Shown here: in pieces, positions 38,119 to 62,695 of the stretch
Layout of the letters: each line of letters opens with the position of its first letter
How positions within the stretch are numbered: the first letter of the stretch is position 1
Source of the DNA: Rhodothermales bacterium
GTDB taxonomy: Bacteria; Bacteroidota; Rhodothermia; Rhodothermales; Bin80
Assembly: GCA_965209015.1 (NCBI GenBank)
Contig: OZ242367.1
Span: forward strand, 673,649 to 737,648
Length of the DNA stretch: 64,000 nt
Reading direction: 5' to 3'
Translations under genes and position numbers: made by a program
Notes under the pieces: model-generated
Databases searched by the model: none
What the model saw: the letters and a program-made list of their open reading frames with translations, nothing else
What the model was told of the DNA's origin: nothing

Positions 38119-38737
38119 GGTGAAGAAGTTTGAATGTTGACCAATTTCGAGTTATCCCTGATACACTTGCACACATCACAGTGTAATTCGTTGAAACCGT
38201 TGGGTGTGGATAGTAAATTGATATAGAATGGTCTTGTGGGCGGTGTAAGGATACAATTTCGTTGCATGCTTTCATGCTCCGGTATGTTGTCACTCTTCGA
38301 TCGCAGAGGCAGGGTAGCTAATTCTCTAGATCGCATAGATCTACTTCAACTCAATGGATACACATCTCGCGTTTTCCTGTTTCGAGATCATGAATCAGAT
38401 TCAAGCTCTTGGACACCTTGGGTAAAAATGGATATACCTCCTGATCCAGCTGTAGCAGGCCGGTTTTAAGTATCCATGTCGTAATCCGTTTAACTTAGCA
38501 GATATGTGTTTGTAGAGTTACCAGCTTAATGAGTTCTTTGGGGTCTGGCGCAACGCTTAAGGAGGCTTCTTTGAAGCTAAATATAGGACGGAAGAGTGTT
38601 GCTGGGAGTGATGAGATATCAGACCTCTTTCAAATGGAACATACCCTAAGTGAACCATTATTAACTTTGGTTATTACAAAAAAATTACGTTATTTGTGTG
38701 TTATACTTATCCTCCCACTCCACAAGCTATCATACTT

Positions 38738-41700
38738 ATGGCAACCTATCAACGCCAAGCAACTTTCACCCGAGACATTTCATTTCTAAGTCTTGGGAGC
38801 CTATTCCTGATCTCAACCGTGATCACTATCATGTTTCTGGTTCCTGAATCTTCCCCCTTGGAACCTAATCAACGGTCTATGAAGTCACAACATCTCGAGG
38901 ATTCTTTTGGGTTTCCAGATAAATTTGCAGAATATTTTGCATCAGCGCAAGGCCTTAACGCTGGCTATCCTCCCTATCCGCAAGGTCACAAATGGCAGGA
39001 GTTTCAAAATGCATTATGGGAAAATGCAAAGCGCGGTACAAATTCGGCTACACTAGATTGGATAGAACGTGGTCCGGGTCGTATTGGTGGAAGGACCCGT
39101 GCCGTCTTGGTAGATCCGTCGGACCCAATGGCGAATACATGGTATGTCGCCTCTGTGGGAGGAGGTGTATGGCGCGGGCATCGTTTCATTGATGACTTCG
39201 GGCAAGAGCAGGTTGAATGGACTCCACTCACAGATGATTTGCCCAGTCTTGCTGCGACGACGCTAGATATATCTCGCAACAACCCGAATGTTATGTATCT
39301 GGGGACCGGTGAGGGATTCTTCAATGTTGATGCCGCTGCTGGAGTTGGAATGTTTAAGTCTACGGATAAGGGTGAGTCTTGGATACATCTTTCTGCTACA
39401 ACGTTAAGTGGAGAATCGGACTGGCGCTACGTCAATCGCTTGGTGGTGCATCCTGATAATCCCGACCTTGTCGTTGTCGCAACAAACACTGGAATTTTTC
39501 GAACAGAGAATGGTGGACAGTCATTTTCCAAAGTATATACTACTGATCGTCGCGTTCAGGATTTACGGGCGAATCCAGATAATTTTAATATTCAGTTTGC
39601 CACAGTGCATGGAACCGCGATTCTACGCTCTGTGGATGGAGGGAAGACTTGGGAAGAATCTTTAGCAGCTTTTCCGTATTCACCTGAGCGCATCGAAATC
39701 GCTATTTCTTCTTCAGATCCAAATGTGATTTGGGCTTCTGCCGAAGGTTCAGGTGACCGATCAACAACATCGAGGCGTGGAGGAGAAGTACCTGTATCCG
39801 ATTTTTATCGCTCCATAGATGGGGGAGAATCATGGAGGTTTATTGATTTTTCTGATGAAGTACCGGGTGCCTTAACAGGTTTCTTAGAAGGCCAAGGGTG
39901 GTATGACAATATGATTCTCGTTCACCCATTCTCTCCAGATACAGCTTATCTTGGTGGTGTAGACCGTTACAGGGTCTGGGTAGATGGGAGTAGCGATCCA
40001 ACCTCTATTACGATAGGGAATATAAACAGGTTTAATAATGCGGCCAGCTTTATAGATTTTATCAATTTTGGAGCGAATGCAGTTGATGGGACGATTTCTT
40101 TGGGGTACCTGAGCAGCGATCCTGAGGATGATGTGCATGACATTGAACTCTCTGACATGACCTCCGTAGAGGTTCGGTTCGGCCCAGGGCTCACTCAAAA
40201 TGCCCACCGATTCACGGTTCCCCGGAATGCAGGAACAACCGGTGATGGAGGGCCCGGGGTTACCTTCCCAGAATACATCTACGAAGATTACGTTGAGGTT
40301 CCATTTCAGGTCTGGGATACCGATAATAATCGTCAATTAATGGTCTCCTTCCGCGATCAAGCACGTGACGGTGAATATACTCTCATCCCTCGCAATACTG
40401 AAGGGAGTGCAATTAACCATAGTCGCGAATATATATTTGTCTCAAAATATGATTATGCAGAATCTCCAAGGCTAGATCTAGCACAAAATGGAGGATTCAG
40501 AAAAGGTCTGATGTATTTTATGTGGCCAATTTTGCTTGAAGATGAGGAAGCCCCTGACTGGAACCCGAATTCTCCTCCCCCTGGGAAAATAGACATTGAC
40601 TTTAAAGAACTGGATGTCTTAGCTGAAGAGTCCTTCATAGAATTGTGGGAGAATGACATTGTCCATGTTGATCACCATGCAATGGTCGCTGTACCTATTG
40701 ATGCAAGTACAAATGAGTTTTATCTCTTGAATGGGAATGATGGTGGGGTGGCCTATTCCCGGGATGGTGGAGAGAACTGGATTGAAGGAGACGCCTCGCC
40801 GGGCTACAATACGTCTCAATTTTATGATGCAACCAAACGCGAAGGCTTCCCCATGTATATCGGAGGCATGCAAGACAATGGTACTTGGGCCTCATATAAT
40901 ATGGCAAACAGCAGACGCGGTTGGAGGAACATACTGAGCGGTGACGGGTTCGATGTTGTCTGGAAAGGTGCTGATTCACTCATGGTTTCAGCCCAATCTA
41001 ATATTATTCAGCGGTCATTCAGTGGAGGAAGCAATGGCATAGCACCCGCCGGAAATATAGGTGACTGGGACGGTCAATTCATTACCTCTCTCGGGTGGAC
41101 ACCTGAATCCGGTGATGCGGTCTACTCTATTTCACCCTCCGGAGGTCCCTTGCGTACGCTTGATTTTGGAGGAACATGGGAGGCCTTACATCCAAGTTGG
41201 GATCCGCCCATTTTTAGCACGAGCGGAAAGGTCCGCGTCTCTTTGGCAGATCCTACCGTCGTTTGGGCAGGTTATTATTTGCGTCCCCCAGCAAGTTCAT
41301 CTGGCGGAAGGCTTCATGTTATTGAGAATGCCATGTCTCCACGGGAGACCATAAATAATTCACCTATCATTCGTCGTGCCAATGCACCGGACTTTGCACC
41401 CAGTGCGACCATCACTGGTTTAGCAACGCATCCCTTTTCTCGAGGTACCGCTTATGTCACTTTTTCAGTCTGGTGTGAACCCAAACTATTACGGACAGAA
41501 GATATGGGCAGGACCTGGGTGGATCTGTCTGGGTTTGTGGATAGCGATAACTGCGAAAGTACCAATGGATTTCCAGATGCTCAGGTGTGGGATGTTGAAG
41601 TATTTCCTGAGTTGCCGAGAATCATCTGGGCTGGAACTGATATAGGAATCTTTGAATCGCTTGATCATGGACAAACATGGGCCTATGCAGACAATGGATT

Positions 41701-42100
41701 GCCCGCCGTGAGCGTGTGGCGGATTCGGATTGTTGATGGGGATGTGGTCGTAGCAACTCACGGGCGTGGAGTCTGGTCGCTAGACCTGGATCAGGTATTG
41801 ACTGCTTATAATCAGGATGTATCTGAGGTACCCGATGCATTTGAACTTCACGGAAATTATCCGAACCCCTTTAATCCATCCACGAATATTTCCTTTAAAG
41901 TTGCAACGAATAGTCACATTCGTGTAACGGTGTTTGATCTTTTGGGGCGGAAAGTGGCTACACTTACGGACCAGCCCTATGCAACGGGCACTCACCAAAT
42001 TCAATGGGATGCATCTGGGGTGAGCAGTGGACAATACATCTATCGGATGGAGGCCGATGGGAAGATGATTGGAGTAAAGTCAATGGTCTTGATCAAGTAG
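38738..42100 (+). CDS. Large secreted BNR/Asp-box repeat protein (sortilin/VPS10- or GH74-like) with a T9SS C-terminal sorting domain
   Basis: At least 8 Asp-box motifs are present (STDKGESW, SVDGGKTW, SIDGGESW, SRDGGENW, TEDMGRTW, SLDHGQTW and others). C-terminal sorting domain (CTD) YPNPFNPSTNISF...YIYRM...MVLIK. I prefer the ATG at 38738. Confidence 0.85.
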   Translation: MATYQRQATFTRDISFLSLGSLFLISTVITIMFLVPESSPLEPNQRSMKSQHLEDSFGFPDKFAEYFASAQGLNAGYPPYPQGHKWQEFQNALWENAKRGTNSATLDWIERGPGRIGGRTRAVLVDPSDPMANTWYVASVGGGVWRGHRFIDDFGQEQVEWTPLTDDLPSLAATTLDISRNNPNVMYLGTGEGFFNVDAAAGVGMFKSTDKGESWIHLSATTLSGESDWRYVNRLVVHPDNPDLVVVATNTGIFRTENGGQSFSKVYTTDRRVQDLRANPDNFNIQFATVHGTAILRSVDGGKTWEESLAAFPYSPERIEIAISSSDPNVIWASAEGSGDRSTTSRRGGEVPVSDFYRSIDGGESWRFIDFSDEVPGALTGFLEGQGWYDNMILVHPFSPDTAYLGGVDRYRVWVDGSSDPTSITIGNINRFNNAASFIDFINFGANAVDGTISLGYLSSDPEDDVHDIELSDMTSVEVRFGPGLTQNAHRFTVPRNAGTTGDGGPGVTFPEYIYEDYVEVPFQVWDTDNNRQLMVSFRDQARDGEYTLIPRNTEGSAINHSREYIFVSKYDYAESPRLDLAQNGGFRKGLMYFMWPILLEDEEAPDWNPNSPPPGKIDIDFKELDVLAEESFIELWENDIVHVDHHAMVAVPIDASTNEFYLLNGNDGGVAYSRDGGENWIEGDASPGYNTSQFYDATKREGFPMYIGGMQDNGTWASYNMANSRRGWRNILSGDGFDVVWKGADSLMVSAQSNIIQRSFSGGSNGIAPAGNIGDWDGQFITSLGWTPESGDAVYSISPSGGPLRTLDFGGTWEALHPSWDPPIFSTSGKVRVSLADPTVVWAGYYLRPPASSSGGRLHVIENAMSPRETINNSPIIRRANAPDFAPSATITGLATHPFSRGTAYVTFSVWCEPKLLRTEDMGRTWVDLSGFVDSDNCESTNGFPDAQVWDVEVFPELPRIIWAGTDIGIFESLDHGQTWAYADNGLPAVSVWRIRIVDGDVVVATHGRGVWSLDLDQVLTAYNQDVSEVPDAFELHGNYPNPFNPSTNISFKVATNSHIRVTVFDLLGRKVATLTDQPYATGTHQIQWDASGVSSGQYIYRMEADGKMIGVKSMVLIK

Positions 42101-43506: not shown

Positions 43507-46500
43507 TTAATGAGAGAAATTTACGCGTAAGTTGAATCCACCCTTAATGGTCTTGTAGGGAAGCCTTCGACTGTCACCAATAAAGTCTTCGTACTGAATA
43601 AAGAAATCTGCTGAAACAACGTTACTGAATTGGTACGCAATTTTTGGCTGCGCTTGGATTCGTGCTGTGCTGGTTAACACATCTACATAAGGCTCCTCAA
43701 GGGCTTCGGATACATCAAAGTCTGGGTCAAGTGCTGCAATTTCCATGGCGCGACGGATATAAAAACTGCGATCATCATTTCCCGTCCTAGAGAGGGTGAG
43801 TGAGAAATTTATCCGATTATTGAGTGCACGGCGAAGGAACGGAAGCTTTAATCCAGATTTACTCCATGAAGCTGTGAAAGAAATTTCGTTACTTCGGTTT
43901 TCATTCACCACATTATTGGTCGTACTGAGTGAATAGGAATTGACCTTGTTCCACACCACACTAGCTTGGACATTTCCTTTAATAGATAGATCTACGCCAA
44001 CTAAGGGTTGAAAGCGTTCGTTGATTCGTACGGCGTCTACTTCCTCATGGGGTATTTCAAAGGCAATGACGGGTCCCGGTCCGAGATTGAAAGCATCCTC
44101 TTGACCACCCCGAAGATTTGACCTGAAATCAGACGAAAAAGTGCTCGAGTAAGAATGACGTAAAGTGGCATTCTGGAACAGTATTCGAATCAGCGGCCAG
44201 TTAGAGATTCCCGAATAACTGACCGACCAACTTGGTAAAGGGATGGGAGCAGTACCCGAGGATCCGAGGGCAAGATAACTTGACTGGAAGTCCTCATATA
44301 TCCGGCGGTTGGTTAGAACAGTGGACCGTAATGTGTCAGGCAAGAGGTCACCAGAGGAGCATACCTCTCCACAATCGGAAAAATATTGATCCAGTTGGGA
44401 CTGAAATAGATCTACATAGGATGCTCCAAATGACCATGCGGAAACAGAAATATCGCTCGTCCGAGTCGTATCCGCACCCGGTTCACCGTTTTCTAAAAGA
44501 CGGTAAGTAATATTTTCTCTATTAGTTTCCTCCATCTTCCAATTTAAGGTGACTCGCAGTTGAGACGACAAGTTCAAGGAAACTCGACCTGACCATCGGT
44601 CGTCACGATTGAGAGCATCGGTCACTTGGAGTCGATCATTGAGAATTCGCCCCTCCTCTGGGGTAATAGTCCGATCAAGTCCCAGCCGATATCTAAGGGA
44701 TGGTCCCTGTCCGTTGAATAATGCGTCATATAGGCTGTAGTATACCTGGGTATTCCCAGATTCGTCCAAAATTCCAATATTGTTTGCGGAGCCTTGGCGG
44801 GTACCATTGTAAGTTAGAGATACATCCTGTATCCCGGTGACGGCAAGTAAGAACCGCCGGGACAATGCTTTTGGGGTCAGCCCTGGGGGGAATCTAAATC
44901 TGGGCGTACGTGTTGTATCCTCCACTTCAGGCACATTCATAGGAATCTCCTCCTCAGAAATATCTTCCTCCGTCACAGTCGTGTCAGCTTGCGCTTCCCT
45001 CTGGCGCTCAAATTCTAAGCGACGGGCTACACGGCGTTCCTTCCGTTTTTGCTGTCTCTGCTGCCGTCGTGTCTGTGCCTCAGATTCGGCAGCACGTTGA
45101 GCGTTCTCTAATCGCTGGTAGAAATCAAATTTCTGTAACAATTCTCTGGGGTTCAAGGTGAGCCCAGCACGGAGGGAGATATTGATATTGGTTTGAGCTC
45201 CCGCATTGTTTCCGACCGATCCATTGGACCATCTAAAATTTGCTGTGTAGTTCATATCCTGAATTTGAATCCAGGATAACGACTCATAGCGCTGTAAGCG
45301 AGGTCGAAAGGTTGCATTGAATCGAGAGGAGTAGGATTCTGTCCGAATACTGGGCGCACCTGGCACACTCCCGCCCAATGCCTGTCGGAATACCTGACCA
45401 AATTTTCGATGCCGAAGATCAGTAAGCTCAAAAGCACTAACTCCAATTTGGGAACTATCAACCGTTCCCTCCTGAATCAAGGAGGCCAAAGTCGTATTGT
45501 CAAATCTGGATTCTTTGCCGGTTGTATCAACGAGAATAACAGAATATAACGTGTCCACTCCGATTGCATTCAAGCTTTGATCGGTATTTGAATCAATCCC
45601 TAGATCAAGGAAACTGAATGGACTGTACTGGAAATTAAATCGCCGATTATGGGAGAATTGATGCTGTGGGCGAATAGGTAACTGAACATCCAGAGGTAAT
45701 TCGGAACTGCGTTGACGAACGGGATCAGGGCGTTGCTTTGAGGAGGAGAACGTTCGATTCGCACTCAAACTATAATCTAGCGAAGAGGGAAGATAATTAA
45801 GGCCAATATCACTGAGCAGGTTCAGTACAGGGACTCCCTCGAGCCAGCTAAATAATCGGAGGACCCGAGGAGTCCGAACTTGAAGGCGATAACTTAATGA
45901 GGAATTCCAGCGCCAAGAATTTCGAAACGATTGGGTTGGAGTTCGATTCTTATTATCCGAATAGGAATAACTGAACGATACACCATCAAGAGTATTTCTA
46001 AGCAGCCGTGAGCGGCTTCCACTCTTGCTGATCCGCGCTGAATACGATGACACCTTAGAAAACGTCTGTGCTTCCTCGCGGATCTGTTGCTGCCGAACGG
46101 CAATCTCTCCACTGGTTAATGTCGAATCGGCTTCAATAGCATTCTGGAGACTGATCACACGAATATCACCACGGTTCGGGTCAAACCGAGGAAGACTTGA
46201 ATTTTCTTTTATCTCCATACTCACGGGTAACGTCCAACCATAGCGCTCGGGAATAAATTTATCCAGGCTTAGTTGTGAGTTGACCGTCCAATTTTGTAGA
46301 TTGAGTTGCTGCCGATCTCCTAAGGTGCTTGATAATGAGCCAAATCCATCAGATTGTGCACGCGCAGATACTTTGACGCGTGCCAAATCTGCTAACTTGA
46401 TGTCAGCCGTACCATAGGCAGCATACCCTACCTCTTGATCATATCCAGCCATCCGCAACTCGTTGACCCACATGCTCGCCTCCTGCAATATGTCCCCACT

Positions 46501-49500
46501 CTCCGATGCGTTACGAATACCAATCACGATGGTCGTAATTCGGCTAAGGCTGGGAGTCCCTCGAACGCCGATACGAGTACCGGGGGGAGCAAACTCTCGA
46601 ATCACGGATTGGAAGTTTGCGTGGATATCACTCCAAAATGTTTTGGTGGGATCAAATCCGGTACTGGATTCATCCTCAAAGGTATCACGTAGAAACTTCA
46701 ATTGGTTCAGAGAACTCAGCAGGATATTTACTGAATTCAGATCTGTTACTGATTCCCCATCTGGATCTGGATTGGGTTGATTCGTGCGCCAAAGGTAGTC
46801 TGCCCGCTGGCTAGGCTCTGCCGGGATATTGTACAGTGGGCTGGGTGTCAGAGGCTGTTCGTACTCATAGTAATCCGAATCCTCGTTGGCTCCGAGCCGG
46901 ATGAAGAGTTTTACTGCACCACGATCTTCGGCCTCTAATGGTTGATTATTCATCCGGCCATTAAGATGAATGAACATGCGCAGATTGTTATATCGAAGAA
47001 GATCCTGCGCTGAGTTATAGGTGCGGTACACGGCAAGGTGTCGGTTGGGGAGGAGATCGCTTGCGCGAATGACCATTGCCTGCTCCCTTACATCTCGAAT
47101 TTCTCCCGACCGAGCTTCACGGATTCGATTCCTAACAGCTCCCTTAGGGATTTCATATTCAGAATTTTCCTCATTATTTACGCTTTCAATACTAATACGA
47201 GCCCCTGTGAATGGATTCTCTGGAGGAATCATATTTCCATCAGGATCGGTAGTATTCACCACTTCACTGGTTCTCCACTGGCTACCTACCAATTCCAAGG
47301 TCGCAAAACGTACAGTGATTGGAGAGGTGTGTCCGGTGGTCCAGATACGGATGGATTCCATGAGTGTAAAGTCCTGAATTGCTCCAACCCGACGGGTAAA
47401 GTTTCGGATGGGAATCCGAACCAGATACCATCCGGTTCCGGTACCATCATTCGTTTCGATTTCGTTGATGACATAATCGTTCGTATTCTCGGGCCTTGCT
47501 TGTTCGTCCAATATGCCAAGATTGAGAGGGACCTCATACTGGAAATAGCTATTGTCTGTATCCGAGGCAGAATTCAGATTAATATCTTCGGTATCGGGGC
47601 TACGCGAATTCCCAGTATCTGCATCCCCACCTCCGCCGGGGCCTAATTTGCTATGGGCATCAAACGAATTTAACTCATGACCTGCAAAAAATCGGGTAAA
47701 GCGCTCCTGAATTGTTGCTCCACCAGGAAAAAATTGGTTGTTACCAAAGAAAGAATTGTTTAGGAAGTAGTAATAGTCATCTGCCGAGGGATCCAGAAGT
47801 GCTTTTGCTCTCTCTTGGGCAAGGATCTCAGGATATTTTACACTCACGGTATTTTCCAGGGATGCAAGAAAATCGGCAAATACAAACTGTTCGGTTCCAG
47901 CTCCTCCCTCCGCCTCAAATTTATTATTAGGAAACGAGGGAAGCCCATCTAATCCCAGATCCTCTGTGATCCGCTCATCGTCAATGACTGGGTTGATTTT
48001 CTGATTCTGTTGGCCGGTGGACAGTCTGGCGAGTGATCCCACACTTCCAACCTCAGATAGCGAGAGACCATCTTCTGTGTTAAGTTTGTTGTCAGGAATC
48101 ACATCTTCACTGATCCTGCCAATATCAATCATTAGCTTTGCATCAAGATCTCCCTCCCCGGCCTCGGGGAATGGTTGCATCACAAACTCAATGAATTCAA
48201 TATTTTTAGACGTAAAGTCGGTATTCCCCTCGGTAAGTCGCTGCGTCATTCCGCCCCATGCCTCGCGTGGATTATCCAGAAATCGTCCAAAATCACGGTT
48301 ATAGTTATAGGGGCCACGTCCGTGAGGAGTAAAATAGAGATCAAGCGTTGTTAGGATTCGCTCACTTTGGAGGGTTTCTCGATTCGGGAACACCTCTTGA
48401 GGAGAGACCAATCTCACTGCTGGCGAACCTTCACCTTCAAATTGATTTAAGGATGAGACATTCAGTGAATACCAGCCCAGAACGCCACGACCGTCATTCG
48501 TGAGGTCTACCTCGGCTCCACTCATCTCGGTATCAACGCCAATCACGGGAGCGCTACTGAGTAGCCATGCTCCTTGGCGCATGAGAGAAATCAGGTTTTC
48601 AAAGCCCTCAAAGTCATCTACATAGGAAAGCCCCTGAGTTTCATCAGGATAAAAATCGCGACCGTCCTTACGGAGTTCGCGCCGCTGATCTTCAAAGGCA
48701 TTGGTGAGGACATGCCCGGGGCGTAGCTGGGCAAATTCGCCCGCAATCGTGATCAAACTGGGCTCTTTTGTTTGAATGAGAGGAAGCCAATCAATTGCTC
48801 GGGTAAGCCACTGGGGTTCCAATTCAAGGCGTGAGTCAGCTCCCCAGATCAGGTTGGAAATGGGCTCATCTCCGATACGAAACTTATCTGTGATTGATTT
48901 TTGACTCAGTCGCATGATCGTTCCACCTGCCGAGAATTCTTCACTCGGAAGATATTCTAACCGGGCTCCCAGAAGCGTCTTTTGCTGAAGGTTGATGAAT
49001 GCATTTTCCTCATAGTCAATGTCAATGTCACGTCCAGCGATGACGTAGGCATCGTTGACGATTGTTACTGTGCCTCCCAGATAGTCTACGATATAATCAG
49101 CACCTTCCACGAGTGTATTTCCCCCTGAGGTCACTCGTACCGATCCCTCAACTAGACCAGAGTACGCTCTGAGGTCATAGAAGGAGGGAATACCACCTTT
49201 ATGCGAGCCCTCAATCAAATAAACATTCTTTGCTGTATTCCTTGTCGCATTCAGCTTTTTTTGCGTGTACAACTCATTGAAGACATATAGATTTTTTGCT
49301 TCTGCTTTGGATTCATCATCCAAGCCACTTGCATCAATCAAGGTTTCCATCCTTTTTCCGAACGGTTCTAGATAGGGAAAAATCAAGAGACCATCGCCGG
49401 GAATGATTGAGTAATTCGGTAAGAAGTCAAATAGATCATCAGGTCGTTGTGCTCCGTCCTCATTGAGCCGGTCAAGGCCGAGAACCTGGATCAATGTTTG

Positions 49501-51402
49501 TTGTCCAGAAATTTCGGGAATCGTTCGGGTAGCAGCGCGTCCAGGAGGTTCATAGCTGACGTTTAGTATGAAATCCGTCGGGAGAAGTCCTCGGTTTAGT
49601 TCGTAGATATTACGCATTTCCAGATACCAAGCGGCTGGGTTGAGCTGATTTGTTTCCCCCAGGTTTGCGGGTTGTTGGAGATTCACTGGTTTGAGTAACT
49701 TCAGGACTATACGATCCCCCACTTGGCTATTGTCCCCACCTCCTGTCTGACTGGAAAAGTCTCCAATCTGGATTTCGGATCCACCCGCGAGATAGCGGAA
49801 CGATACGGCTAGGGCCTCACTTTCCTGAATGGTTTGACGCAGAGTAATGAATCCCAGAATTTCATCTAAATCATAATCACGTCCCAGTTCAAGTTTTTTG
49901 AACTGTCCAACTTGGTAGTCCACGGTGGTGAGGGGTTGCTCCATCGCTGAACTCTCCAGATAATCCTGAGGTACAGCAGCCCCTGTGCGCAGTTCGTTTT
50001 GCAATTCTCTATTGTCGTATTGGTCCAGGTTTTGGCTTGGGTGGCGTGCGTCGGTGTATAAGTCTGCATCCGTAATCATCTGAGAAGACTCGCCCAAGTC
50101 TACAACGGCCACGACCTGTCGAACATTTTGCTCCTCTGGTGCAACTGGAGTTAATTTCCAGACTTCAATATCTGTGATTCGTGAAAAAGTAGCGTCCAGA
50201 ATGATGTTGGGGGGATCACTCAATGCCTCATTCCACCGGTTCCGAAAGTAGTAACTAAGGAAGTAATATTTTCGTTGACTATAGTCAGTTGGGCGTCGGC
50301 TGAAATTTGACGTTTCAGCTCCGCCATCCAAGGAGAGGCTATTCGATTGGCCCTCCTGCTGACTGGCGACGGTAGTGAGGTGGAGGGCCCCTACCTGGAA
50401 TTCAGATTTAATTCCAAATAGACTTTGCCCACCTCGGATGAGAGTTGAGGGGGTTTGCAAAAATACGTTCCCAGCTTCAATACTCTGGATGATTTCATCT
50501 TCATAGCCGGTATAGATCAGTTCAAGTTGGTTCTGGAAGTCAAAATCGCGATTCGTGTCCCAGTCCACATTGATCTTCATTTTATCTCCAATCGTTCCGG
50601 TAACCCCCAGTCGTAGATCCATACGAAACTCTGGAGTCAGTTGTGCACCCTGGCCGGTAACGACTCGCTGCGCATTTTCTTCATAGATGAATGCCGGACG
50701 GATATCTGCACTTCCATTGACACGTAAGTCTACCTCATTCTTACCAAAAATGGTGGAGAACCCACTCTGACGCCCGCCCGGCACGGCAATGGAAAGTCCT
50801 AGTCCGCGACGACGACGCTGTTCCAGATCCCGGCGCCGATTAAGTAGCTGATGCCAGTTTCTGTCAAGGCTTTCGGAGAGCCTTGCAGACTGATATTGGG
50901 ACCGGGGCATGCGGATCGCATGTCGCACATCTTCACCTGCTACCCGCTCTCTGATCGTATAGAAGGAGCCGGTACTGTCTAATTCAATCTCATGGTTCCA
51001 GCCGCTAAAAAGGTCAGCACCCATCGATTGCCGTTCCCATGGGAAGATCATCGCCGAACGTTTCGTACGTGTCAAGGATGAGAAGTAGCGCTTGGCTCTC
51101 TCATTGGTATCTGGTGGAGGCGCAAGCGAATCAATCCGAGCAAAAAGGAGGCTGTCCAGTCCAAGGTCTAAAACCATATTTCGTACAGAGTCGCGACCCA
51201 GACGTGTGATGAGCGATCGAAGAGAATCCAATTGATTCAGGGTAACACTATCCGTATCGGATACGGTGATGTCCTGATACGTCTCTCTGGGGTGATCACC
51301 TTGGGCCGCAGCATGTGCCAAAAGCATCCAAACCAGCAGCACTCCAATGGAGTATACTGCAAGTTGCCGGAGAGCATTACTCTGGCGTCTATTTAAGTGC
51401 AT
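43507..51402 (-). CDS. sprA: T9SS translocon protein SprA
   Basis: 2,631-aa ORF with a signal peptide. Its size, its beta-rich composition and its pairing with T9SS cargo in the window fit SprA/Sov. The family call rests on recognition of the N-terminal region and on length. Confidence 0.8.
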   Translation of the reverse strand: MHLNRRQSNALRQLAVYSIGVLLVWMLLAHAAAQGDHPRETYQDITVSDTDSVTLNQLDSLRSLITRLGRDSVRNMVLDLGLDSLLFARIDSLAPPPDTNERAKRYFSSLTRTKRSAMIFPWERQSMGADLFSGWNHEIELDSTGSFYTIRERVAGEDVRHAIRMPRSQYQSARLSESLDRNWHQLLNRRRDLEQRRRRGLGLSIAVPGGRQSGFSTIFGKNEVDLRVNGSADIRPAFIYEENAQRVVTGQGAQLTPEFRMDLRLGVTGTIGDKMKINVDWDTNRDFDFQNQLELIYTGYEDEIIQSIEAGNVFLQTPSTLIRGGQSLFGIKSEFQVGALHLTTVASQQEGQSNSLSLDGGAETSNFSRRPTDYSQRKYYFLSYYFRNRWNEALSDPPNIILDATFSRITDIEVWKLTPVAPEEQNVRQVVAVVDLGESSQMITDADLYTDARHPSQNLDQYDNRELQNELRTGAAVPQDYLESSAMEQPLTTVDYQVGQFKKLELGRDYDLDEILGFITLRQTIQESEALAVSFRYLAGGSEIQIGDFSSQTGGGDNSQVGDRIVLKLLKPVNLQQPANLGETNQLNPAAWYLEMRNIYELNRGLLPTDFILNVSYEPPGRAATRTIPEISGQQTLIQVLGLDRLNEDGAQRPDDLFDFLPNYSIIPGDGLLIFPYLEPFGKRMETLIDASGLDDESKAEAKNLYVFNELYTQKKLNATRNTAKNVYLIEGSHKGGIPSFYDLRAYSGLVEGSVRVTSGGNTLVEGADYIVDYLGGTVTIVNDAYVIAGRDIDIDYEENAFINLQQKTLLGARLEYLPSEEFSAGGTIMRLSQKSITDKFRIGDEPISNLIWGADSRLELEPQWLTRAIDWLPLIQTKEPSLITIAGEFAQLRPGHVLTNAFEDQRRELRKDGRDFYPDETQGLSYVDDFEGFENLISLMRQGAWLLSSAPVIGVDTEMSGAEVDLTNDGRGVLGWYSLNVSSLNQFEGEGSPAVRLVSPQEVFPNRETLQSERILTTLDLYFTPHGRGPYNYNRDFGRFLDNPREAWGGMTQRLTEGNTDFTSKNIEFIEFVMQPFPEAGEGDLDAKLMIDIGRISEDVIPDNKLNTEDGLSLSEVGSVGSLARLSTGQQNQKINPVIDDERITEDLGLDGLPSFPNNKFEAEGGAGTEQFVFADFLASLENTVSVKYPEILAQERAKALLDPSADDYYYFLNNSFFGNNQFFPGGATIQERFTRFFAGHELNSFDAHSKLGPGGGGDADTGNSRSPDTEDINLNSASDTDNSYFQYEVPLNLGILDEQARPENTNDYVINEIETNDGTGTGWYLVRIPIRNFTRRVGAIQDFTLMESIRIWTTGHTSPITVRFATLELVGSQWRTSEVVNTTDPDGNMIPPENPFTGARISIESVNNEENSEYEIPKGAVRNRIREARSGEIRDVREQAMVIRASDLLPNRHLAVYRTYNSAQDLLRYNNLRMFIHLNGRMNNQPLEAEDRGAVKLFIRLGANEDSDYYEYEQPLTPSPLYNIPAEPSQRADYLWRTNQPNPDPDGESVTDLNSVNILLSSLNQLKFLRDTFEDESSTGFDPTKTFWSDIHANFQSVIREFAPPGTRIGVRGTPSLSRITTIVIGIRNASESGDILQEASMWVNELRMAGYDQEVGYAAYGTADIKLADLARVKVSARAQSDGFGSLSSTLGDRQQLNLQNWTVNSQLSLDKFIPERYGWTLPVSMEIKENSSLPRFDPNRGDIRVISLQNAIEADSTLTSGEIAVRQQQIREEAQTFSKVSSYSARISKSGSRSRLLRNTLDGVSFSYSYSDNKNRTPTQSFRNSWRWNSSLSYRLQVRTPRVLRLFSWLEGVPVLNLLSDIGLNYLPSSLDYSLSANRTFSSSKQRPDPVRQRSSELPLDVQLPIRPQHQFSHNRRFNFQYSPFSFLDLGIDSNTDQSLNAIGVDTLYSVILVDTTGKESRFDNTTLASLIQEGTVDSSQIGVSAFELTDLRHRKFGQVFRQALGGSVPGAPSIRTESYSSRFNATFRPRLQRYESLSWIQIQDMNYTANFRWSNGSVGNNAGAQTNINISLRAGLTLNPRELLQKFDFYQRLENAQRAAESEAQTRRQQRQQKRKERRVARRLEFERQREAQADTTVTEEDISEEEIPMNVPEVEDTTRTPRFRFPPGLTPKALSRRFLLAVTGIQDVSLTYNGTRQGSANNIGILDESGNTQVYYSLYDALFNGQGPSLRYRLGLDRTITPEEGRILNDRLQVTDALNRDDRWSGRVSLNLSSQLRVTLNWKMEETNRENITYRLLENGEPGADTTRTSDISVSAWSFGASYVDLFQSQLDQYFSDCGEVCSSGDLLPDTLRSTVLTNRRIYEDFQSSYLALGSSGTAPIPLPSWSVSYSGISNWPLIRILFQNATLRHSYSSTFSSDFRSNLRGGQEDAFNLGPGPVIAFEIPHEEVDAVRINERFQPLVGVDLSIKGNVQASVVWNKVNSYSLSTTNNVVNENRSNEISFTASWSKSGLKLPFLRRALNNRINFSLTLSRTGNDDRSFYIRRAMEIAALDPDFDVSEALEEPYVDVLTSTARIQAQPKIAYQFSNVVSADFFIQYEDFIGDSRRLPYKTIKGGFNLRVNFSH

Positions 51403-59248: not shown

Positions 59249-62206
59249 TTATACTAACGACGCCAGAAGTCTAACAGCCTCCTTGTTGTTGCCATGTACG
59301 GTTGGCTCTTGGCACCAGTGGGAGCGAAGCATATCAATGACTGGGAGAGCTTTATCTGGATGAAGGTTAAGCATTTCAACGACCGCTAAGTCTATTCTCT
59401 TTCGGACTTCATCTGCATGTGCCTGACATGCAGGCAGTAATTCCATGAGGGAAATCTCATCAAACATATCTTCTGCTCTGCATAGCTGTACATCTGAGAT
59501 TTCGTCTAAACGAGGACACGGAAGATTGGATATCGCCTTTATCCTTGTCGTGGAACGACCAATTTGTGTTCGGGACCCGTATGTCCAATGAACCAAGAAT
59601 CCGAGCGTTGAGTTGGCCCACAGAGCGAATGCCTTATGGACACGCTTATTTTTGTGAACCAAAGACACCCACGCTCTCCCTCCCACTCCTAGATTTTTCG
59701 TCGTAGCTGCCAATAGTTTCTGGGAGGTCCAGCGCATGTTCTTTGCATAGAACAGTGTACTTTGATCCGCCCGTACTCTGTCAATCTTTTGTCTGCTCCC
59801 AGTTCCTCCCCACGGAATCCCTTTGTGTGTAAAGGATACAATCAATTTGTTCTGTTCACTTTTGTCCGCCCGCCAAAGCATCCTATCTGTTCCAGAAGCA
59901 TCCGCTTTGTCAGCGACTGGATAAGCCTCAAAGGCGCCCCTACGATTTCCTCCAACCACATTACCAATTATACCTTCGTCTGGACCAATCGAAAACAAGT
60001 CAGACATTTTGACCATTGAGATTCCAAGCGCAGTATTGTAGTCGCTATATCTCAGGTTCCCATGGCGAAGCTCTCTACAAGCGACCACAAGGTCCTTGTG
60101 CAAAATACCTAAGGGCGACCACGGCTCTCCGTCACACTTGACTGGGAAGGAAAAGAATTCGCCGACTGTGTCGTCACCAATCTGAACGGGACAATTCGTG
60201 AATCCACGAGTCTTGGCCTGATGGATTACATCTCGAATAGCACGTGCGACTTCACGGGCTTCTCCAAGGCGCTCCACAGGTCTCCGAAGTGTGATGCTAT
60301 ATATCTTGATTGGATCCAAGTTAGTAGTCTGATTTTGGGGCCGACATCCAACTTTCGTGGCGATAAGCAACATCTCTCCCATCCCTGTATCAGCAGAGAG
60401 AGATCCTTTCCTGTAAGGATGATCTCCAGAAACGGTAATGATCATAATGTCCCTGTACTTACTCTCTATCAGCTTCCTGGTTTTTATCCATTCCACCCCA
60501 AATGCTGCTGTGAGGGGGAGCACAAACCCGATTCGACCACCCCGTTTGCATTTTATATCTGCCAACACGAGAAATGACGCCCCCAGTCCGGCACTTTTGT
60601 TGGCAGCCTTATTCCGTATCAATCTCCCCCACCTTTCCTGACATTCTTTGCGTTCCTGATCTGAAAGCCCATGAACATCAAAAGCTCCTTGTTTCCCATC
60701 TGATCTTTTGTAAGGGGGATTCATCAGAATCCAGTCTATCTTACCCTCTGGGATATCTACGGAGACATTATCATATTTCTCCGTTCCAGAGGTCTTGCCT
60801 ATATGGGGATCTGAAAAAATGTCCTTCACATTGTCTGTCTTAAAATATTCCAAGGATCCCGTCTTGAATCCCTTTCCCCCAACGCCTACCCAACCAATCT
60901 GAGTATTCCCATAAGTGTCCCCCTTACCGAGCGACGCCAAGGACGATGTGGTCAAGTGCGCAGCGATAGGAGAAATATCTACTCCAATAAGTCCACCTTC
61001 CATAGCGCCTGTGTGCATCAAGGAGACATCTGCATTTTTGAGTGCATGCCTTTCATGGAGATCTATGATGCGCCTATATCCCGCGCGAAGCAGTGTGCCA
61101 GTTCCACAAGCCAGATCAACCAATTTAAAGGAGCTAAATAGTAGTGGATTTGCCCAGTCCTTTTCTGACAGATCATCCGGGGAAATTGTGAGATCGGCAA
61201 GTGTTTCCGCCGTGCCTGGTCGAGTGTAGAATGCCGCTGCTGCTTTACGATCATCGCTCAGTACAGGAAAAAGTTCGGCCCCTACACTAATATGTAAGCC
61301 AATCTGCGCATATTCTATTTTCTCAACACACTCATTAAGAGTGGAGAGTGCACTGGAGGTGACACCTGGATCCAAGTTTATAGACTCTCGCAGTACATCA
61401 ATGGCGGGCTGGAATATGGACCTCCAGTTACGGCTGTTATTGGATTCCCACACTCTTAATCGCTCACGCGGATCAAGAGATTTTTCCTGATGACTTATTT
61501 GTAACGCAGGAGTACTGACTCTCTTTCCGTGTTCAGCTTGTAGTTCCAGTCTCCGCTGTACTAAAAGCGCATTTAACCAGATTACCATCATGGTGCGTAG
61601 TCCATTTAATGGAGAACGCTGGAGCAAGCGATCTGAAAGTAGATCTTGATCCTTATCAGATAATCGGTTAGCGAGAATATTTGCCGTATCTCTCACCAAA
61701 TTTGCAACCTCTTGCCCCACTTCGCTAATTCTTTCGTTGGGGATAGCGAGGGACAAGAGCAAAGTTTTTATGTCATGGATAGTTCCAGTAATAAAACCTT
61801 TCTTAGGCCAGCGTCCACCATTTTTATCTTCCCTGTGAACGGCGTAGCGTATTTCAATCCCAGACAGAAGGTCAGAACAAATCTCTGAATCGTCTGTTTT
61901 TCTGAAACGATGGGGAATATGAACTGCAACAGATGTATGTATCGGGTAGTCTGATACCTTGGTCAGTTCCCCTAAATATTTCTTCACGTCTGCATCTGCA
62001 TCTCTGGGGTCAAAAGAAGTCTCAATATTCAGAGGAGGATACTTCGGATCATTAATTATGAGATCCGGCTTCAGGTTAGACCCGCGAATCAAACCATGAC
62101 GTTCCACAATGATACACTCCTTGGGTTGCCAAGATGTATGTGTCTCACGAAGAGCTTCTCCGAATTTTTGATTAAATGTCTGCTCTCCCGTTTTCCCTAC
62201 CATCAT
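59249..62206 (-). CDS. Large single-chain gamma-class N6-adenine DNA methyltransferase with a nuclease-like N-terminal region (Type IIG/IIL R-M-like)
   Basis: Motif X-like AFYTRPGTA, motif I LVDLACGTGTLL, and motif IV LMNPPY occur in that order, which is the gamma order. The N-terminal ~130 aa has a PD...E-x-S pattern (KPDLIIND...LNIETSF) reminiscent of PD-(D/E)xK. A ~380-aa C-terminal region may be the target-recognition domain. Confidence 0.7.
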   Translation of the reverse strand: MMVGKTGEQTFNQKFGEALRETHTSWQPKECIIVERHGLIRGSNLKPDLIINDPKYPPLNIETSFDPRDADADVKKYLGELTKVSDYPIHTSVAVHIPHRFRKTDDSEICSDLLSGIEIRYAVHREDKNGGRWPKKGFITGTIHDIKTLLLSLAIPNERISEVGQEVANLVRDTANILANRLSDKDQDLLSDRLLQRSPLNGLRTMMVIWLNALLVQRRLELQAEHGKRVSTPALQISHQEKSLDPRERLRVWESNNSRNWRSIFQPAIDVLRESINLDPGVTSSALSTLNECVEKIEYAQIGLHISVGAELFPVLSDDRKAAAAFYTRPGTAETLADLTISPDDLSEKDWANPLLFSSFKLVDLACGTGTLLRAGYRRIIDLHERHALKNADVSLMHTGAMEGGLIGVDISPIAAHLTTSSLASLGKGDTYGNTQIGWVGVGGKGFKTGSLEYFKTDNVKDIFSDPHIGKTSGTEKYDNVSVDIPEGKIDWILMNPPYKRSDGKQGAFDVHGLSDQERKECQERWGRLIRNKAANKSAGLGASFLVLADIKCKRGGRIGFVLPLTAAFGVEWIKTRKLIESKYRDIMIITVSGDHPYRKGSLSADTGMGEMLLIATKVGCRPQNQTTNLDPIKIYSITLRRPVERLGEAREVARAIRDVIHQAKTRGFTNCPVQIGDDTVGEFFSFPVKCDGEPWSPLGILHKDLVVACRELRHGNLRYSDYNTALGISMVKMSDLFSIGPDEGIIGNVVGGNRRGAFEAYPVADKADASGTDRMLWRADKSEQNKLIVSFTHKGIPWGGTGSRQKIDRVRADQSTLFYAKNMRWTSQKLLAATTKNLGVGGRAWVSLVHKNKRVHKAFALWANSTLGFLVHWTYGSRTQIGRSTTRIKAISNLPCPRLDEISDVQLCRAEDMFDEISLMELLPACQAHADEVRKRIDLAVVEMLNLHPDKALPVIDMLRSHWCQEPTVHGNNKEAVRLLASLV

Positions 62207-62695
62207 CGGACTGCATGATTACCCATTTGAACATTTTCTATATGATTTTCTATTGCCCGTACAGATATACGTGAAAACTTGTTGAACTGTTTGATAACGA
62301 ACCATGCCGCCGCTCAACCATGGAATCAACTCCAACAGGGATGAGTCAAAAACCTCTTGTTCTGGCAGCAAAGGGTATCGGAGTTTCCGTTTATGTCGAA
62401 ATATGAACGCCTCAAAAATACAAAATTTGTAGATCTGCAGCCAATAGATGAGGTGTTTCTGTGTCCTGTGAGTGCGATATGATTCTTAGGGGTGCCGTAG
62501 GTTGAGTTCATCCTGCAACGACTTGATCCATTTGTATCGGGGAGAGGATCCAGACCTTATTAGGATGCATTCATTCTCAAGTATGTACTTAGATCTACTT
62601 CACCAATAGGGCAATGGAGATTCGTATTTCCACACGAGTTATTCTGGATTAGACTCCACTATGTATGGATGAGGCCGGAGGAGCAGTCAGGTGCC

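What the first reader, a model, noticed from the sequence alone, without database searches (positions are those of the whole stretch)
59249..62206. Solitary 985-aa methyltransferase with a nuclease-like N-terminus (Type IIG/IIL-like), but a non-canonical nuclease motif
Seen in sequence:
- The gamma-class N6-adenine methyltransferase motifs occur in order: AFYTRPGTA, LVDLACGTGTLL, GVDISPIAAHL, LMNPPY.
- These are preceded by ~340 aa whose first ~130 residues contain E...KPDLII...LNIETSF.
- They are followed by ~380 aa with no recognisable motif, possibly a target-recognition domain.
- The gene is an isolated minus-strand unit between an aminotransferase gene and the bat operon.
- About 150 nt of non-coding DNA lies on one side and about 490 nt on the other. 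No separate R, S, helicase or controller gene is present.

Established knowledge: MmeI-like and Eco57I-like enzymes combine an N-terminal PD-(D/E)xK nuclease, a gamma methyltransferase and a recognition domain in one ~900-1000-aa chain.

Inference:
- This is a single-chain restriction-modification or defence enzyme.
- The E-T-S in place of E-x-K could mean a variant catalytic site, an inactivated nuclease (an orphan methylase), or a different N-terminal function altogether.
Basis: partly seen in the sequence, partly recalled or inferred. Interest (0 to 1): 0.55.

Follow-up and report, generated by a model that had tools for sequence, protein, structure and literature searches.

The report
Lysine-less single-chain restriction-methylase, uncharacterised family
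This gene encodes a one-protein restriction-modification enzyme of the MmeI/BpuSI type from a large family that no database names; its DNA-cutting domain lacks the usual catalytic lysine, and related genomes carry tandem copies that differ only in small swapped DNA-recognition cassettes.

Summary
In detail: a 985-aa ORF (59249-62206, minus strand) carries every quoted motif and stands alone between an aminotransferase gene and a TPR (bat-like) gene.

**Structure.** A confident AlphaFold2 model (pLDDT 86.5) has five domains: restriction-endonuclease fold, helical spacer, gamma N6-adenine methyltransferase, a beta-rich recognition domain and a C-terminal helical bundle. The boundaries nearly match those published for MmeI. 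The best structural match is the Type IIG enzyme BpuSI (E 1.7e-19).

**Family.** No Pfam, NCBIfam, PADLOC or PDB sequence model recognises anything beyond the methylase core. The N-domain defines about 900 representative clusters, and complete members are about 1000 aa.

**Nuclease site.**
- E8, D48, E62, D73 and R132 are invariant or nearly so.
- The canonical lysine position is E, S or A, never K.
- S64 covaries with D69, which suggests a compensated, still active site.
- Plasmid outgroups keep D-ExK.
- Active TspDTI-type enzymes are published with a predicted D-ExE motif.

**Context and paralogues.** Ten sampled loci contain no BREX or DISARM partner genes. Related genomes carry tandem arrays of near-identical copies that differ only in two strictly covarying recognition modules. 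One array holds all four combinations.

**Verdict.** This is a new variant of a known kind. Cleavage activity is inferred, not shown.

The parts
59249..62206 (-). Complete gene, 985 aa plus stop: single-chain nuclease-methyltransferase-recognition protein
   Evidence: ORF list. Full-length homologues. AF2 model with pLDDT 86.5 and pTM 0.89. Foldseek top hit BpuSI, E 1.7e-19.
61742..62206 (-). N-terminal restriction-endonuclease-fold domain (residues 1-155): helix a1 with E8/N12, strand b2 with D48, strand b3 with E62-T-S64, helix a2 with D69/D71/D73/K76, then R132-W-P134
   Evidence: Domain model with pLDDT 93.4. Foldseek neighbours 3ijm, BpuSI, SfsA, R2 endonuclease, Exo5, McrC, MmcB, Cas4-like and Mrr, all weak (best E 0.03). 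Invariant residues. Coordinates checked.
62015..62023 (-). E62-T63-S64, the position of the canonical (D/E)xK triplet, with serine in place of lysine
   Evidence: Translation. S is invariant in 42 close homologues. The same position is E20/S19/A8 and never K in 47 distant members.
61295..61741 (-). All-helical spacer (residues 156-304)
   Evidence: DSSP of the model shows helices 157-299. It corresponds to the MmeI spacer at 156-300 (PMC4833311).
60332..61294 (-). [quoted passage not shown]
   Evidence: Sub-threshold Pfam Eco57I hit. N6_Mtase hit in 32 of 42 members. Invariant motif residues. Structural matches to CamA, PglX, DrdV, M.BseCI and HsdM.
59507..60331 (-). Beta-rich C-terminal domain (residues 626-900), interpreted as the target recognition domain
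   Evidence: CamA and M.BseCI align over most of their length including their recognition domains (TMt 0.62-0.68). This is the most divergent large domain between orthologues, at 76% against 89% for the methylase.
59939..59974 (-). Variable module A (residues 745-756, GIIGNVVGGNRR), a putative base-specifying loop
   Evidence: One of only two clusters of differences among 98-99% identical paralogues. Strict covariation at 745/756: H-I 18, D-R 18, G-R 3 (the query's clade), with single H-T, H-S and A-gap exceptions and no H-R or D-I.
59549..59677 (-). Variable module B (residues 844-886; R844 and T886 in this protein), a putative base-specifying element
   Evidence: The second cluster of differences among near-identical paralogues. 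Strict covariation at 844/886: R-T 28, S or P with R 12, with single R-P and R-C exceptions and no R-R or S/P-T. It is analogous to MmeI R810/A774 <-> S810/K774.
59249..59506 (-). C-terminal helical bundle (residues 901-985) and stop codon
   Evidence: Helices 905-984 in the model. It corresponds to the MmeI C-terminal bundle at 826-919.
62207..62695 (-). 489-nt upstream intergenic region, which presumably holds the gene's own promoter; no recognisable element was found
   Evidence: No Rfam match. No consensus promoter hit in the spacer. No tandem or simple repeats. Poorly conserved against the orthologous spacer in L001.

Best explanation
The gene encodes a single-polypeptide restriction-modification enzyme with the Type IIG/IIL (BpuSI/MmeI-like) architecture. 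Its five domains, in order, are a nuclease, a helical spacer, a gamma-class N6-adenine methyltransferase, a recognition domain and a helical bundle.

Inferred mechanism:
- The C-terminal beta-rich domain and the methylase clamp an asymmetric DNA site.
- The methylase flips an adenine and methylates it with SAM, which marks the host genome.
- On unmodified foreign DNA, the N-terminal domain, held at a fixed distance by the helical spacer, cuts the DNA with metal ions bound by D48 and E62, together with E8, D73 and D69.

The catalytic lysine of the PD-(D/E)xK motif is replaced by S64. I infer that the site is compensated by D69, and perhaps by K76 or R132, rather than dead.

Shown here: the ORF, its motifs, the predicted fold and domain order, conservation, covariation, and the solitary or tandem genomic context. 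Inferred: DNA as the substrate, m6A as the product, cleavage at a distance, and that modules A and B set base specificity.
For: - Whole-chain model: pLDDT 86.5, pTM 0.89.
- Foldseek against the PDB: BpuSI (Type IIG) E 1.7e-19 over the full chain; DrdV (Type IIL) 1e-11; PglX/BrxX 4e-14; CamA and M.BseCI with TMt 0.62-0.68.
- Domain boundaries 1-155 / 156-304 / 305-625 / 626-900 / 901-985 nearly match the published MmeI boundaries 1-155 / 156-300 / 301-620 / 621-825 / 826-919.
- The N-domain has the alpha-beta-beta-beta-alpha-beta topology. The informative neighbours among its best-scoring matches are all restriction-endonuclease-fold proteins.
- Conservation: E8 46/47, N12 47/47, D48 47/47, E62 47/47, D73 46/47, R132 45/47 in members down to 27% identity. 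NPPY and motif I are essentially invariant.
- Position 64 is E, S or A. E64 goes with non-D69 (18/20) and S64 with D69 (17/19 and 39/42).
- Plasmid outgroups have RPD...IEGK at the aligned position.
- The active enzymes TspDTI, Tth111II, TthHB27I and TsoI are published with a predicted D-ExE motif, and BamHI provides structural precedent (PMC3384240).
- The gene is solitary or in self-arrays at ten loci.
- Near-identical paralogues differ only in two covarying modules of the C-terminal domain, which is the signature of changing DNA specificity seen in the MmeI family (PMC2731914, PMC4833311).
Against: - No lysine sits at the canonical position, and the MmeI K82A mutant is inactive (PMC4833311).
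- In 8 of 47 distant members the position is alanine.
- The query clade has also lost the otherwise conserved R77 (Y77, with K76 adjacent).
- Taken alone, the N-domain gives only weak structural matches (best E 0.029).
- No sequence model of any characterised IIG/IIL family reaches threshold.
- I could not inspect the model's coordinates, so the active-site geometry and DNA contacts are unverified.
- No biochemical or methylome data exist for any family member.
Confidence: 0.6

Rival explanations
1. The protein is a solitary DNA adenine methyltransferase whose nuclease-fold domain no longer cuts. The N-domain survives as a structural, DNA-binding or regulatory module. The protein then acts as an orphan methylase, either as an epigenetic mark or as protection against other restriction enzymes.
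For: - The catalytic lysine is absent in every family member, and alanine is tolerated at that position in 8 of 47.
- CamA, an orphan methylase, is among the best structural matches for residues 300-985.
- The gene is vertically inherited in conserved synteny at about the same divergence as its housekeeping neighbours (82% against 80-97%).
- Distant relatives sit near T4SS or ArdC-like regions of conjugative plasmids, where anti-restriction methylases are common.
Against: - An inactive domain would not keep E8, D48, E62 and D73 invariant or nearly so across about 90 sequences down to 27% identity, nor show the compensatory E64/D69 pattern.
- The N-domain profile finds the domain at the extreme N-terminus in all but a few short entries, and no complete family member in the searches run here lacks it.
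- Cassette-like diversification of the recognition modules in tandem arrays fits an arms race better than a fixed regulatory mark.
Confidence: 0.27
2. The protein is the methyltransferase/specificity component (PglX-, DrmMI- or MAD2-like) of a multi-gene defence system whose partner genes lie elsewhere or have been lost.
For: Faint sequence hits to PglX (NCBIfam E 0.0025; PADLOC 0.002) and to mad2 in relatives (E 7.5e-9), all confined to the methylase core. PglX/BrxX are good structural matches.
Against: - None of the ten loci examined carries BREX, DISARM or MADS genes. Neighbours are unrelated housekeeping genes or further copies of the same gene.
- Scores are far below the curated cut-offs (15.6 against 400 bits).
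- To my knowledge PglX has no N-terminal nuclease-fold domain, whereas this family always does.
Confidence: 0.04
3. The methyltransferase acts on RNA or protein (NPPY also occurs in m2G RNA and glutamine methyltransferases), and the protein is a housekeeping modification enzyme.
For: Weak hits to MTS (PF05175) and to protein arginine methyltransferases around motif I. The genomic neighbourhood is housekeeping.
Against: - All significant structural matches are DNA adenine methyltransferases with recognition domains.
- Named members come from unrelated bacterial groups (Rhodothermaceae, Bacteroidetes, Gammaproteobacteria) and from plasmids of Betaproteobacteria, and several genomes carry multiple copies, which is not typical of a housekeeping gene.
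- The C-terminal modules vary discretely.
Confidence: 0.03

Closest known systems
MmeI family (Type IIL single-chain RM enzymes; MmeI, NmeAIII, DrdV)
   Same: - Same five-domain order with nearly identical boundaries (nuclease about 1-155, helical spacer to about 300, gamma m6A methylase to about 620, recognition domain, C-terminal helical bundle).
- Solitary gene.
- Family members are alignable throughout, yet carry discrete covarying residue pairs in the recognition domain, including a basic residue that swaps between two positions (PMC4833311, PMC2731914).
   Different: - No detectable sequence similarity outside the methylase motifs, and no MmeI-family Pfam domain hit at E <= 1.
- The nuclease motif is D-ExS (family-wide E, S or A) instead of D70...E80-x-K82.
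- MmeI-type enzymes are not reported as tandem arrays of specificity variants.
RM.BpuSI (Type IIG, PDB 3s1s)
   Same: Best structural match of the whole model (E 1.7e-19, aligned over the full chain). It is also among the top matches of the isolated N-domain (TMq 0.52).
   Different: Only 11-14% identity. BpuSI has a canonical PD-x15-ExK motif (PMC3185434 abstract). The overall TM-score is low (0.33-0.37), so the domain arrangement differs or is mobile.
Thermus-family bifunctional enzymes, TspDTI subfamily (TspDTI, Tth111II, TthHB27I, TsoI)
   Same: Same R-Mh-Mc-S domain order in one chain of about 1100 aa. They are active nucleases whose predicted catalytic motif lacks the lysine (D66, E75, E77 = D-ExE), the same variant found in about 40% of the wider family studied here (PMC3384240).
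   Different: Their methylase motifs are DPACGSG and NPPW, against DLACGTG and NPPY here. I could not compare sequences directly because none was available to me. The query itself has serine, not glutamate.
Domain movement (DoMo) of target recognition domains in Helicobacter pylori RM genes
   Same: Recognition sequences are exchanged as cassettes between related RM genes within a genome by recombination or gene conversion, which changes specificity (PMC3077401, PMC3983042).
   Different: - Here the exchanging units are short modules (about 12 and about 75 codons) inside a single recognition domain.
- The partners are full-length genes in head-to-tail arrays.
- One array holds the complete 2 x 2 set of combinations.
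CamA (Clostridioides difficile orphan m6A methyltransferase)
   Same: Methylase plus C-terminal recognition domain superpose well on residues about 300-985 (TMt 0.64-0.68, E 1e-14).
   Different: CamA chains in the PDB are 537-576 residues long and align to the methylase-plus-recognition part of the model; to my knowledge CamA has no nuclease domain or helical spacer. Identity is 12%.

Membership tests
Type IIG/IIL single-chain RM enzymes (architecture class) | Nuclease, methyltransferase and recognition functions in one polypeptide, in the order R - helical spacer - gamma MTase - TRD | tested here: met
   AF2 domain order. Full-chain Foldseek matches to BpuSI and DrdV. Boundaries match MmeI.
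Type IIG/IIL single-chain RM enzymes (architecture class) | N-terminal domain with the PD-(D/E)xK (restriction endonuclease-like) fold | tested here: met
   Alpha-beta-beta-beta-alpha-beta topology at pLDDT 93. The informative neighbours among the best-scoring matches are all of this fold, though individually weak (E 0.03-1). Outgroup relatives carry D-ExK at the aligned positions.
Type IIG/IIL single-chain RM enzymes (architecture class) | Canonical catalytic triad D...(D/E)xK | tested here: not met
   D48 and E62 are present and invariant, but K is replaced by S64. The position is E, S or A across the family and never K.
Type IIG/IIL single-chain RM enzymes (architecture class) | Gamma-class N6-adenine methyltransferase motifs (X FxTP, I xxxGxG, IV NPPY) ahead of the TRD | tested here: met
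   FYTRP, DLACGTG and NPPY occur in order. G368, T369, G370, N496, P497 and P498 are invariant in both alignments; Y499 is invariant in A1 and C367 in at least 90% of the distant members.
Type IIG/IIL single-chain RM enzymes (architecture class) | Stand-alone gene with no separate M, S or R partner | tested here: met
   The window plus ten homologue loci.
Type IIG/IIL single-chain RM enzymes (architecture class) | Site-specific m6A methylation and Mg2+-dependent cleavage at a fixed distance | not testable with these tools
   This needs methylome sequencing and in vitro cleavage assays.
MmeI family (sequence family) | Significant match to the MmeI-family domain models or sequences | tested here: not met
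   No MmeI-domain Pfam hit at E <= 1. No PDB sequence hit to MmeI or DrdV at E <= 10. The PADLOC REase_MTase_IIG hit has E 0.0019 and covers the methylase core only.
Eco57I-like methylases (Pfam PF07669) | Score above the Pfam gathering threshold | tested here: not met
   23.5 bits against a cut-off of 25.3. 22 of 42 members give weak hits.
BREX PglX / BrxX | Encoded in a locus with brxA/B/C, pglZ and brxL, and matches the PglX model | tested here: not met
   15.6 bits against a cut-off of 400. No BREX genes in any locus examined.
TspDTI subfamily (Thermus bifunctional enzymes) | D-ExE nuclease motif, DPACGSG and NPPW methylase motifs, and sequence similarity to TspDTI | tested here: inconclusive
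   The wider family has D-ExE in 20 of 47 members, but the query has D-ExS, DLACGTG and NPPY. No TspDTI sequence was available for direct comparison.

The most novel reading that the evidence does not exclude
This is a widespread, unrecognised family of active single-chain restriction-modification enzymes with two unusual properties.

1. The nuclease works without the canonical lysine, using an acidic residue that has moved from strand b3 (E64) to the start of helix a2 (D69).
2. DNA specificity is diversified in nature by cassette exchange between paralogues. Some genomes hold head-to-tail arrays that encode every combination of two binary recognition modules, which would give four related target sequences from one locus.

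This would be a natural counterpart of the laboratory re-engineering of MmeI.
Probability: 0.4. Interest if true: 0.75.

Novelty: new variant of a known kind. Interest (0 to 1): 0.6.

Why it matters
If the enzyme is active, three things follow.

- It adds a large family (about 900 clusters at 50% identity) to the single-chain restriction enzymes. Current annotation and defence-finder models miss it and label its members hypothetical or generic methylases.
- It extends the known tolerance of the PD-(D/E)xK site to D-ExS and D-ExA variants. The apparent relocation of a carboxylate can be tested directly by mutagenesis.
- The two strictly covarying binary modules, found in all four combinations in one tandem array, give a ready-made natural experiment. 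It could be used to read a recognition code and to design new specificities, as was done for MmeI.

If the nuclease is dead, the family would instead be a large class of orphan methylases with rapidly diversifying specificity, which would still be of interest for bacterial epigenetics.

Tried and rejected
- **Sequence-only identification failed.** Pfam, NCBIfam, PADLOC and PDB searches with the protein and with a 42-sequence profile gave only sub-threshold hits confined to the methylase core.
- **Look-ups not on record.** The window's own protein and its two same-genome paralogues (P0001, P0005, P0121) were not in the contig index. I therefore could not see how the paralogues are arranged in the window's genome.
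- **Paralogue inside the window:** none found.
- **Mobile-element explanation for the dispersed paralogues:** rejected. Homology between L007 and L008 starts 147 nt inside the ORF and ends 22 nt before the stop of the longer copy, and the flanks are unrelated.
- **Phase variation:** no simple-sequence or inverted repeats in or upstream of the gene.
- **Regulatory RNA or controller element in the 489-nt spacer:** no Rfam hit, no promoter consensus, poor conservation.
- **Phage-borne relatives:** only methylase-core matches, to haloviral Type IIG genes.
- **BREX, DISARM or MADS membership:** rejected on context and scores (and the locus tables).
- **Recent horizontal insertion:** not supported. 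GC content is close to that of the flanks, the synteny with an 82%-identical orthologue is intact, and the gene's divergence lies within the range of its neighbours.
- **Ecological origin:** I suspected sponge symbionts but could not verify it, so I make no such claim.
Full report
**1. The observation**

The ORF at 59249..62206 on the minus strand is real. It starts with ATG and encodes 985 aa.
- E8, K46-P-D48 and E62-T-S64 in the first 65 residues.
- FYTRP (motif X), DLACGTG (motif I) and NPPY (motif IV) in gamma-class order.

The gene is flanked as follows:
- 153 nt separate it from a convergent class-III aminotransferase gene (PF00202, E 7e-89).
- 489 nt separate it from a TPR protein gene on the same strand.
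- Further along lie STAS, DnaX, YbaB and RecR genes.
- No R, S, helicase or controller gene is nearby.

The upstream spacer contains no Rfam match, no consensus promoter and no repeats. It is poorly conserved against its orthologue.

**2. Curated resources do not recognise the protein**

- The best Pfam hit is Eco57I at 23.5 bits, below the 25.3 cut-off.
- NCBIfam gives PglX at 15.6 bits against a cut-off of 400.
- PADLOC gives Type II and IIG methylase models at E about 1e-3.
- All of these hits are confined to the methylase core.
- Neither the sequence nor a 42-member profile finds anything significant among PDB sequences.

**3. It belongs to a large, coherent, unnamed family**

A search of the 5.8-billion-protein collection returned 356 hits. 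More than 120 are full-length (about 970-1010 aa) at 43-83% identity. Almost none has a name or a Pfam assignment. The named ones come from Rhodothermaceae, Bacteroidetes and Gammaproteobacteria MAGs.

An exhaustive HMM search with the N-terminal domain alone found 926 representative clusters at E <= 1e-3 and 562 at <= 1e-10. In all but a few short entries among the 150 listed, the domain lies at the extreme N-terminus, and complete proteins are 950-1050 aa. So there is essentially one architecture. Conservation is roughly even along the chain, and the C-terminal region (residues 811-900) is about as conserved as the methylase core.

**4. Structure**

AlphaFold2 with the family alignment gave a confident model (pLDDT 86.5, pTM 0.89). 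It has five parts:

| Residues | Element |
|---|---|
| 1-155 | alpha/beta domain |
| 157-299 | all-helical region |
| about 305-625 | Rossmann-type methylase |
| about 626-900 | beta-rich domain |
| 905-984 | helical bundle |

Foldseek against the PDB ranks the Type IIG enzyme BpuSI first (E 1.7e-19, aligned along the whole chain). Next come CamA (TMt 0.64-0.68), PglX/BrxX, the Type IIL enzyme DrdV, M.BseCI, BsaXI and a Type I HsdM.

The published MmeI domain map is endonuclease 1-155, spacer 156-300, methylase 301-620, TRD 621-825 and C-terminal bundle 826-919 (PMC4833311). It matches this model almost residue for residue.

**5. The N-terminal domain**

Modelled alone (pLDDT 93.4), it has helix a1, strands b1-b3, helix a2 and strand b4. 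This is the core topology of the restriction-endonuclease fold.

Structural matches of the isolated domain are individually weak (best E 0.029). The informative ones among the best-scoring all have that fold:
- In the PDB: 3ijm, BpuSI (TMq 0.52), SfsA, R2 endonuclease, Exo5, McrC, BcnI, Card1, SduA and NucS.
- In the viral library, among the named matches: MmcB, Cas4-like, Mrr and RecE-like proteins.

The conserved residues sit where the catalytic residues of this fold sit: E8 and N12 on a1, D48 at the start of b2, E62 on b3, and D73 on a2. In 47 distant members (27-44% identity) the counts are E8 46/47, N12, D48 and E62 47/47, D73 46/47, R77 42 R and 3 K, R132 45/47, and P134 47/47.

The canonical lysine position (64) is E in 20 members, S in 19 and A in 8. 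It is never K. It is S in all 42 closer homologues.

Position 64 covaries with position 69. E64 goes with a non-aspartate at 69 (18/20), and S64 goes with D69 (17/19 and 39/42). I read this as a carboxylate that has moved from b3 to the start of a2. Such migrations are documented in this superfamily, for example Cfr10I (PD-XXK-E) and Pa4535 (PD-EXX-K) (PMC3424549).

Two outgroup relatives keep the canonical motif at the aligned position, "RPDVLI...AIEGKF...DARNR" and "RPDVMF...VIEGKY...DARQR":
- Aminobacter plasmid pUSP4 and Sulfuricystis plasmid pSTJ1, at 25-27% identity over the rest of the chain.
- The hhalign scores for these N-termini are low (probability 18% and 6%), so this alignment rests on the motif register.

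A Nitrosospira plasmid member has IETE.

There is published precedent. The active bifunctional enzymes TspDTI, Tth111II, TthHB27I and TsoI have a predicted D-ExE site like BamHI, and the same R-Mh-Mc-S order (PMC3384240).

Together these points argue that the domain descends from a canonical nuclease and remains under selection for metal binding. They do not prove that it cuts. MmeI K82A is inactive. The query clade has also replaced R77 with Y, keeping K76 next to it.

**6. The C-terminal domain behaves like a recognition domain with switchable modules**

Cluster look-ups showed several distinct family proteins on single chromosomes.

Eight 968-aa proteins are 98-100% identical. Apart from eleven scattered single-residue differences, they differ at just two clusters of positions:
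- Module A (query residues 745-756), with alleles H..P.TSQI and D..S.RDPR.
- Module B (query 844-853 plus 886), with alleles PT.T..IN..R and RA.A..TD..T.

Across the 42-sequence alignment the key pairs covary strictly:
- 745/756 is H-I (18), D-R (18) or G-R (3, the query clade). The only exceptions are single H-T, H-S and A-gap cases.
- 844/886 is R-T (28) or S/P-R (12). The only exceptions are single R-P and R-C cases.
- Neither pair shows a mixed state (H-R or D-I; R-R or S/P-T).

The second pattern is an arginine that changes position. It mirrors MmeI R810/A774 <-> S810/K774, which switches base recognition (PMC4833311, PMC2731914). The window protein has G745/R756 and R844/T886.

**7. Genomic arrangement of relatives**

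- **Orthologue.** The 82%-identical orthologue in a Rhodothermales MAG (OZ242302.1) sits in the same synteny as the window's gene. Its neighbours are 80-97% identical, so the window's gene is a stably inherited resident. Between orthologues the recognition domain is the most diverged large domain, at 76% against 89% for the methylase.
- **Solitary loci.** Five other homologues on long contigs are solitary among unrelated housekeeping genes.
- **Dispersed copies.** One circular 3.67-Mb contig carries two copies 1.6 Mb apart. Their DNA homology (97%) is confined to the ORF. Codons 61-720 are virtually identical (5 mismatches), while codons 1-50, 721-780 and 870-990 diverge. This is a gene-conversion mosaic, not a transposed element.
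- **Three-gene array.** The sister genome of the window's organism also has a three-gene array of the P0012 type, interrupted by an IS630-like transposase. Copies 1 and 2 differ at 43 nucleotides, and 41 of these lie in codons 844-918.
- **Four-gene array.** A 4.15-Mb chromosome carries four head-to-tail copies with 52-nt spacers, in the order A1B2 - A1B1 - A2B1 - A2B2. Every combination of the two modules is present, and neighbours differ by one module. A second strain has the same array start.
- **The window's own genome.** It appears to hold two further paralogues, P0005 and P0121, at 52% identity to this gene. I could not retrieve their loci.

**8. Interpretation**

The best-supported reading is a single-chain Type IIG/IIL-like restriction-modification enzyme. 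The recognition domain and methylase bind an asymmetric site and methylate an adenine. The tethered N-terminal nuclease cuts unmodified DNA at a distance.

- The architecture, conservation, covariation and context are shown here.
- The substrate, product and cleavage are inferred.

The main rival is that the nuclease is inactive and the protein is an orphan methylase (about 0.27). The missing lysine and the vertical inheritance favour this reading. The near-invariant acidic residues, the 64/69 compensation, the near-constant presence of the domain and the arms-race-like diversification of the recognition modules count against it. A role as a BREX, DISARM or MADS component, or an RNA or protein substrate, is unlikely (and the locus tables).

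**9. Novelty**

The kind of enzyme is known. This family is not captured by any curated model I could search. It has a lysine-less nuclease signature (ExS here). It also shows cassette-level specificity variation in tandem arrays, which I did not find described in the literature library. The nearest concept is domain movement in Helicobacter pylori RM genes (PMC3077401, PMC3983042). I therefore rate it a new variant of a known kind, of moderate to good interest. The most interesting part, the arrays, lies in related genomes rather than in this window.

Noticed in passing
L012 1-10866 (ena:ERZ25070844:ctg10149_1281x_c, 1985662-1998568); L013 5001-12907: Four head-to-tail 968-aa family genes (2907 nt each, with near-identical 52-nt spacers) that are 98-99% identical. 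They carry all four combinations of two binary variable modules, in the order A1B2, A1B1, A2B1, A2B2. A second strain has the same array start.
   Followed up: yes
L014 10001-20840 (ena:ERZ25069412:ctg853968_376x_rc, the same 3,745,182-bp chromosome as L001): Three-gene array (P0123, P0012, P0122) interrupted by an IS630-like DDE_3 transposase gene at 16455-17513. Copies 1 and 2 differ at 43 nt, 41 of them in codons 844-918. The repeat unit runs from 5 nt upstream of the start codon to 108 nt past the end of the ORF.
   Followed up: yes
L007 6001-8979 and L008 6001-8964 (the same circular 3.67-Mb contig, 1.6 Mb apart): Dispersed paralogues with a mosaic pattern. Codons 61-720 are virtually identical at the DNA level, while codons 1-50 (helix a1 and strand b1 of the nuclease domain), 721-780 and 870-990 are divergent, and the flanks are unrelated. 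It is unexplained why the first 50 codons behave as a separate variable block.
   Followed up: partly
L009 7266-10109 (Aminobacter pUSP4); L010 7377-10292 (Sulfuricystis pSTJ1); L011 7989-10934 (Nitrosospira pNRS527-2): Distant relatives (25-28% identity) on plasmids carrying conjugation genes (MOBP or MOBH relaxase, or T4SS genes). They lie next to T4SS genes, a zincin-like (ArdC-type) gene, DUF5710/DUF3560 genes or a PRTRC cluster. Two of them keep the canonical D-ExK nuclease motif. The Nitrosospira gene is not in the PLSDB feature table.
   Followed up: partly
L005 4379-7889: Upstream of homologue P0055 lie a TnpB/Cas12f-like gene, a small N6_N4 methyltransferase gene and two unassigned ORFs. 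This may be a mobile or defence islet next to that copy.
   Followed up: no
L007 1-4242: Near homologue P0127 lie an ISL3 transposase gene, a 1085-aa ResIII/DEAD helicase gene and a 208-aa unassigned ORF. This could be another defence module, and it is not seen at other loci.
   Followed up: no
P0074: A 1469-aa database entry joins a family member to glutamyl-tRNA synthetase domains (PF00749, PF19269). It is probably a gene-calling fusion rather than a real architecture.
   Followed up: no
window 43507-51402 (-) and 38696-42100 (+): A 2631-aa SprA-like type IX secretion protein (PF14349, E 2e-85) and a 1134-aa BNR/sortilin-repeat protein with a Por secretion tail. This fits the Rhodothermales/Bacteroidota-type origin suggested by the closest homologues.
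   Followed up: partly
window 61000-62500: G+C dips to 0.43-0.455 over the 5' third of the gene and its upstream spacer, against 0.47-0.51 in the flanks. The difference is mild and is not accompanied by any break in synteny.
   Followed up: partly
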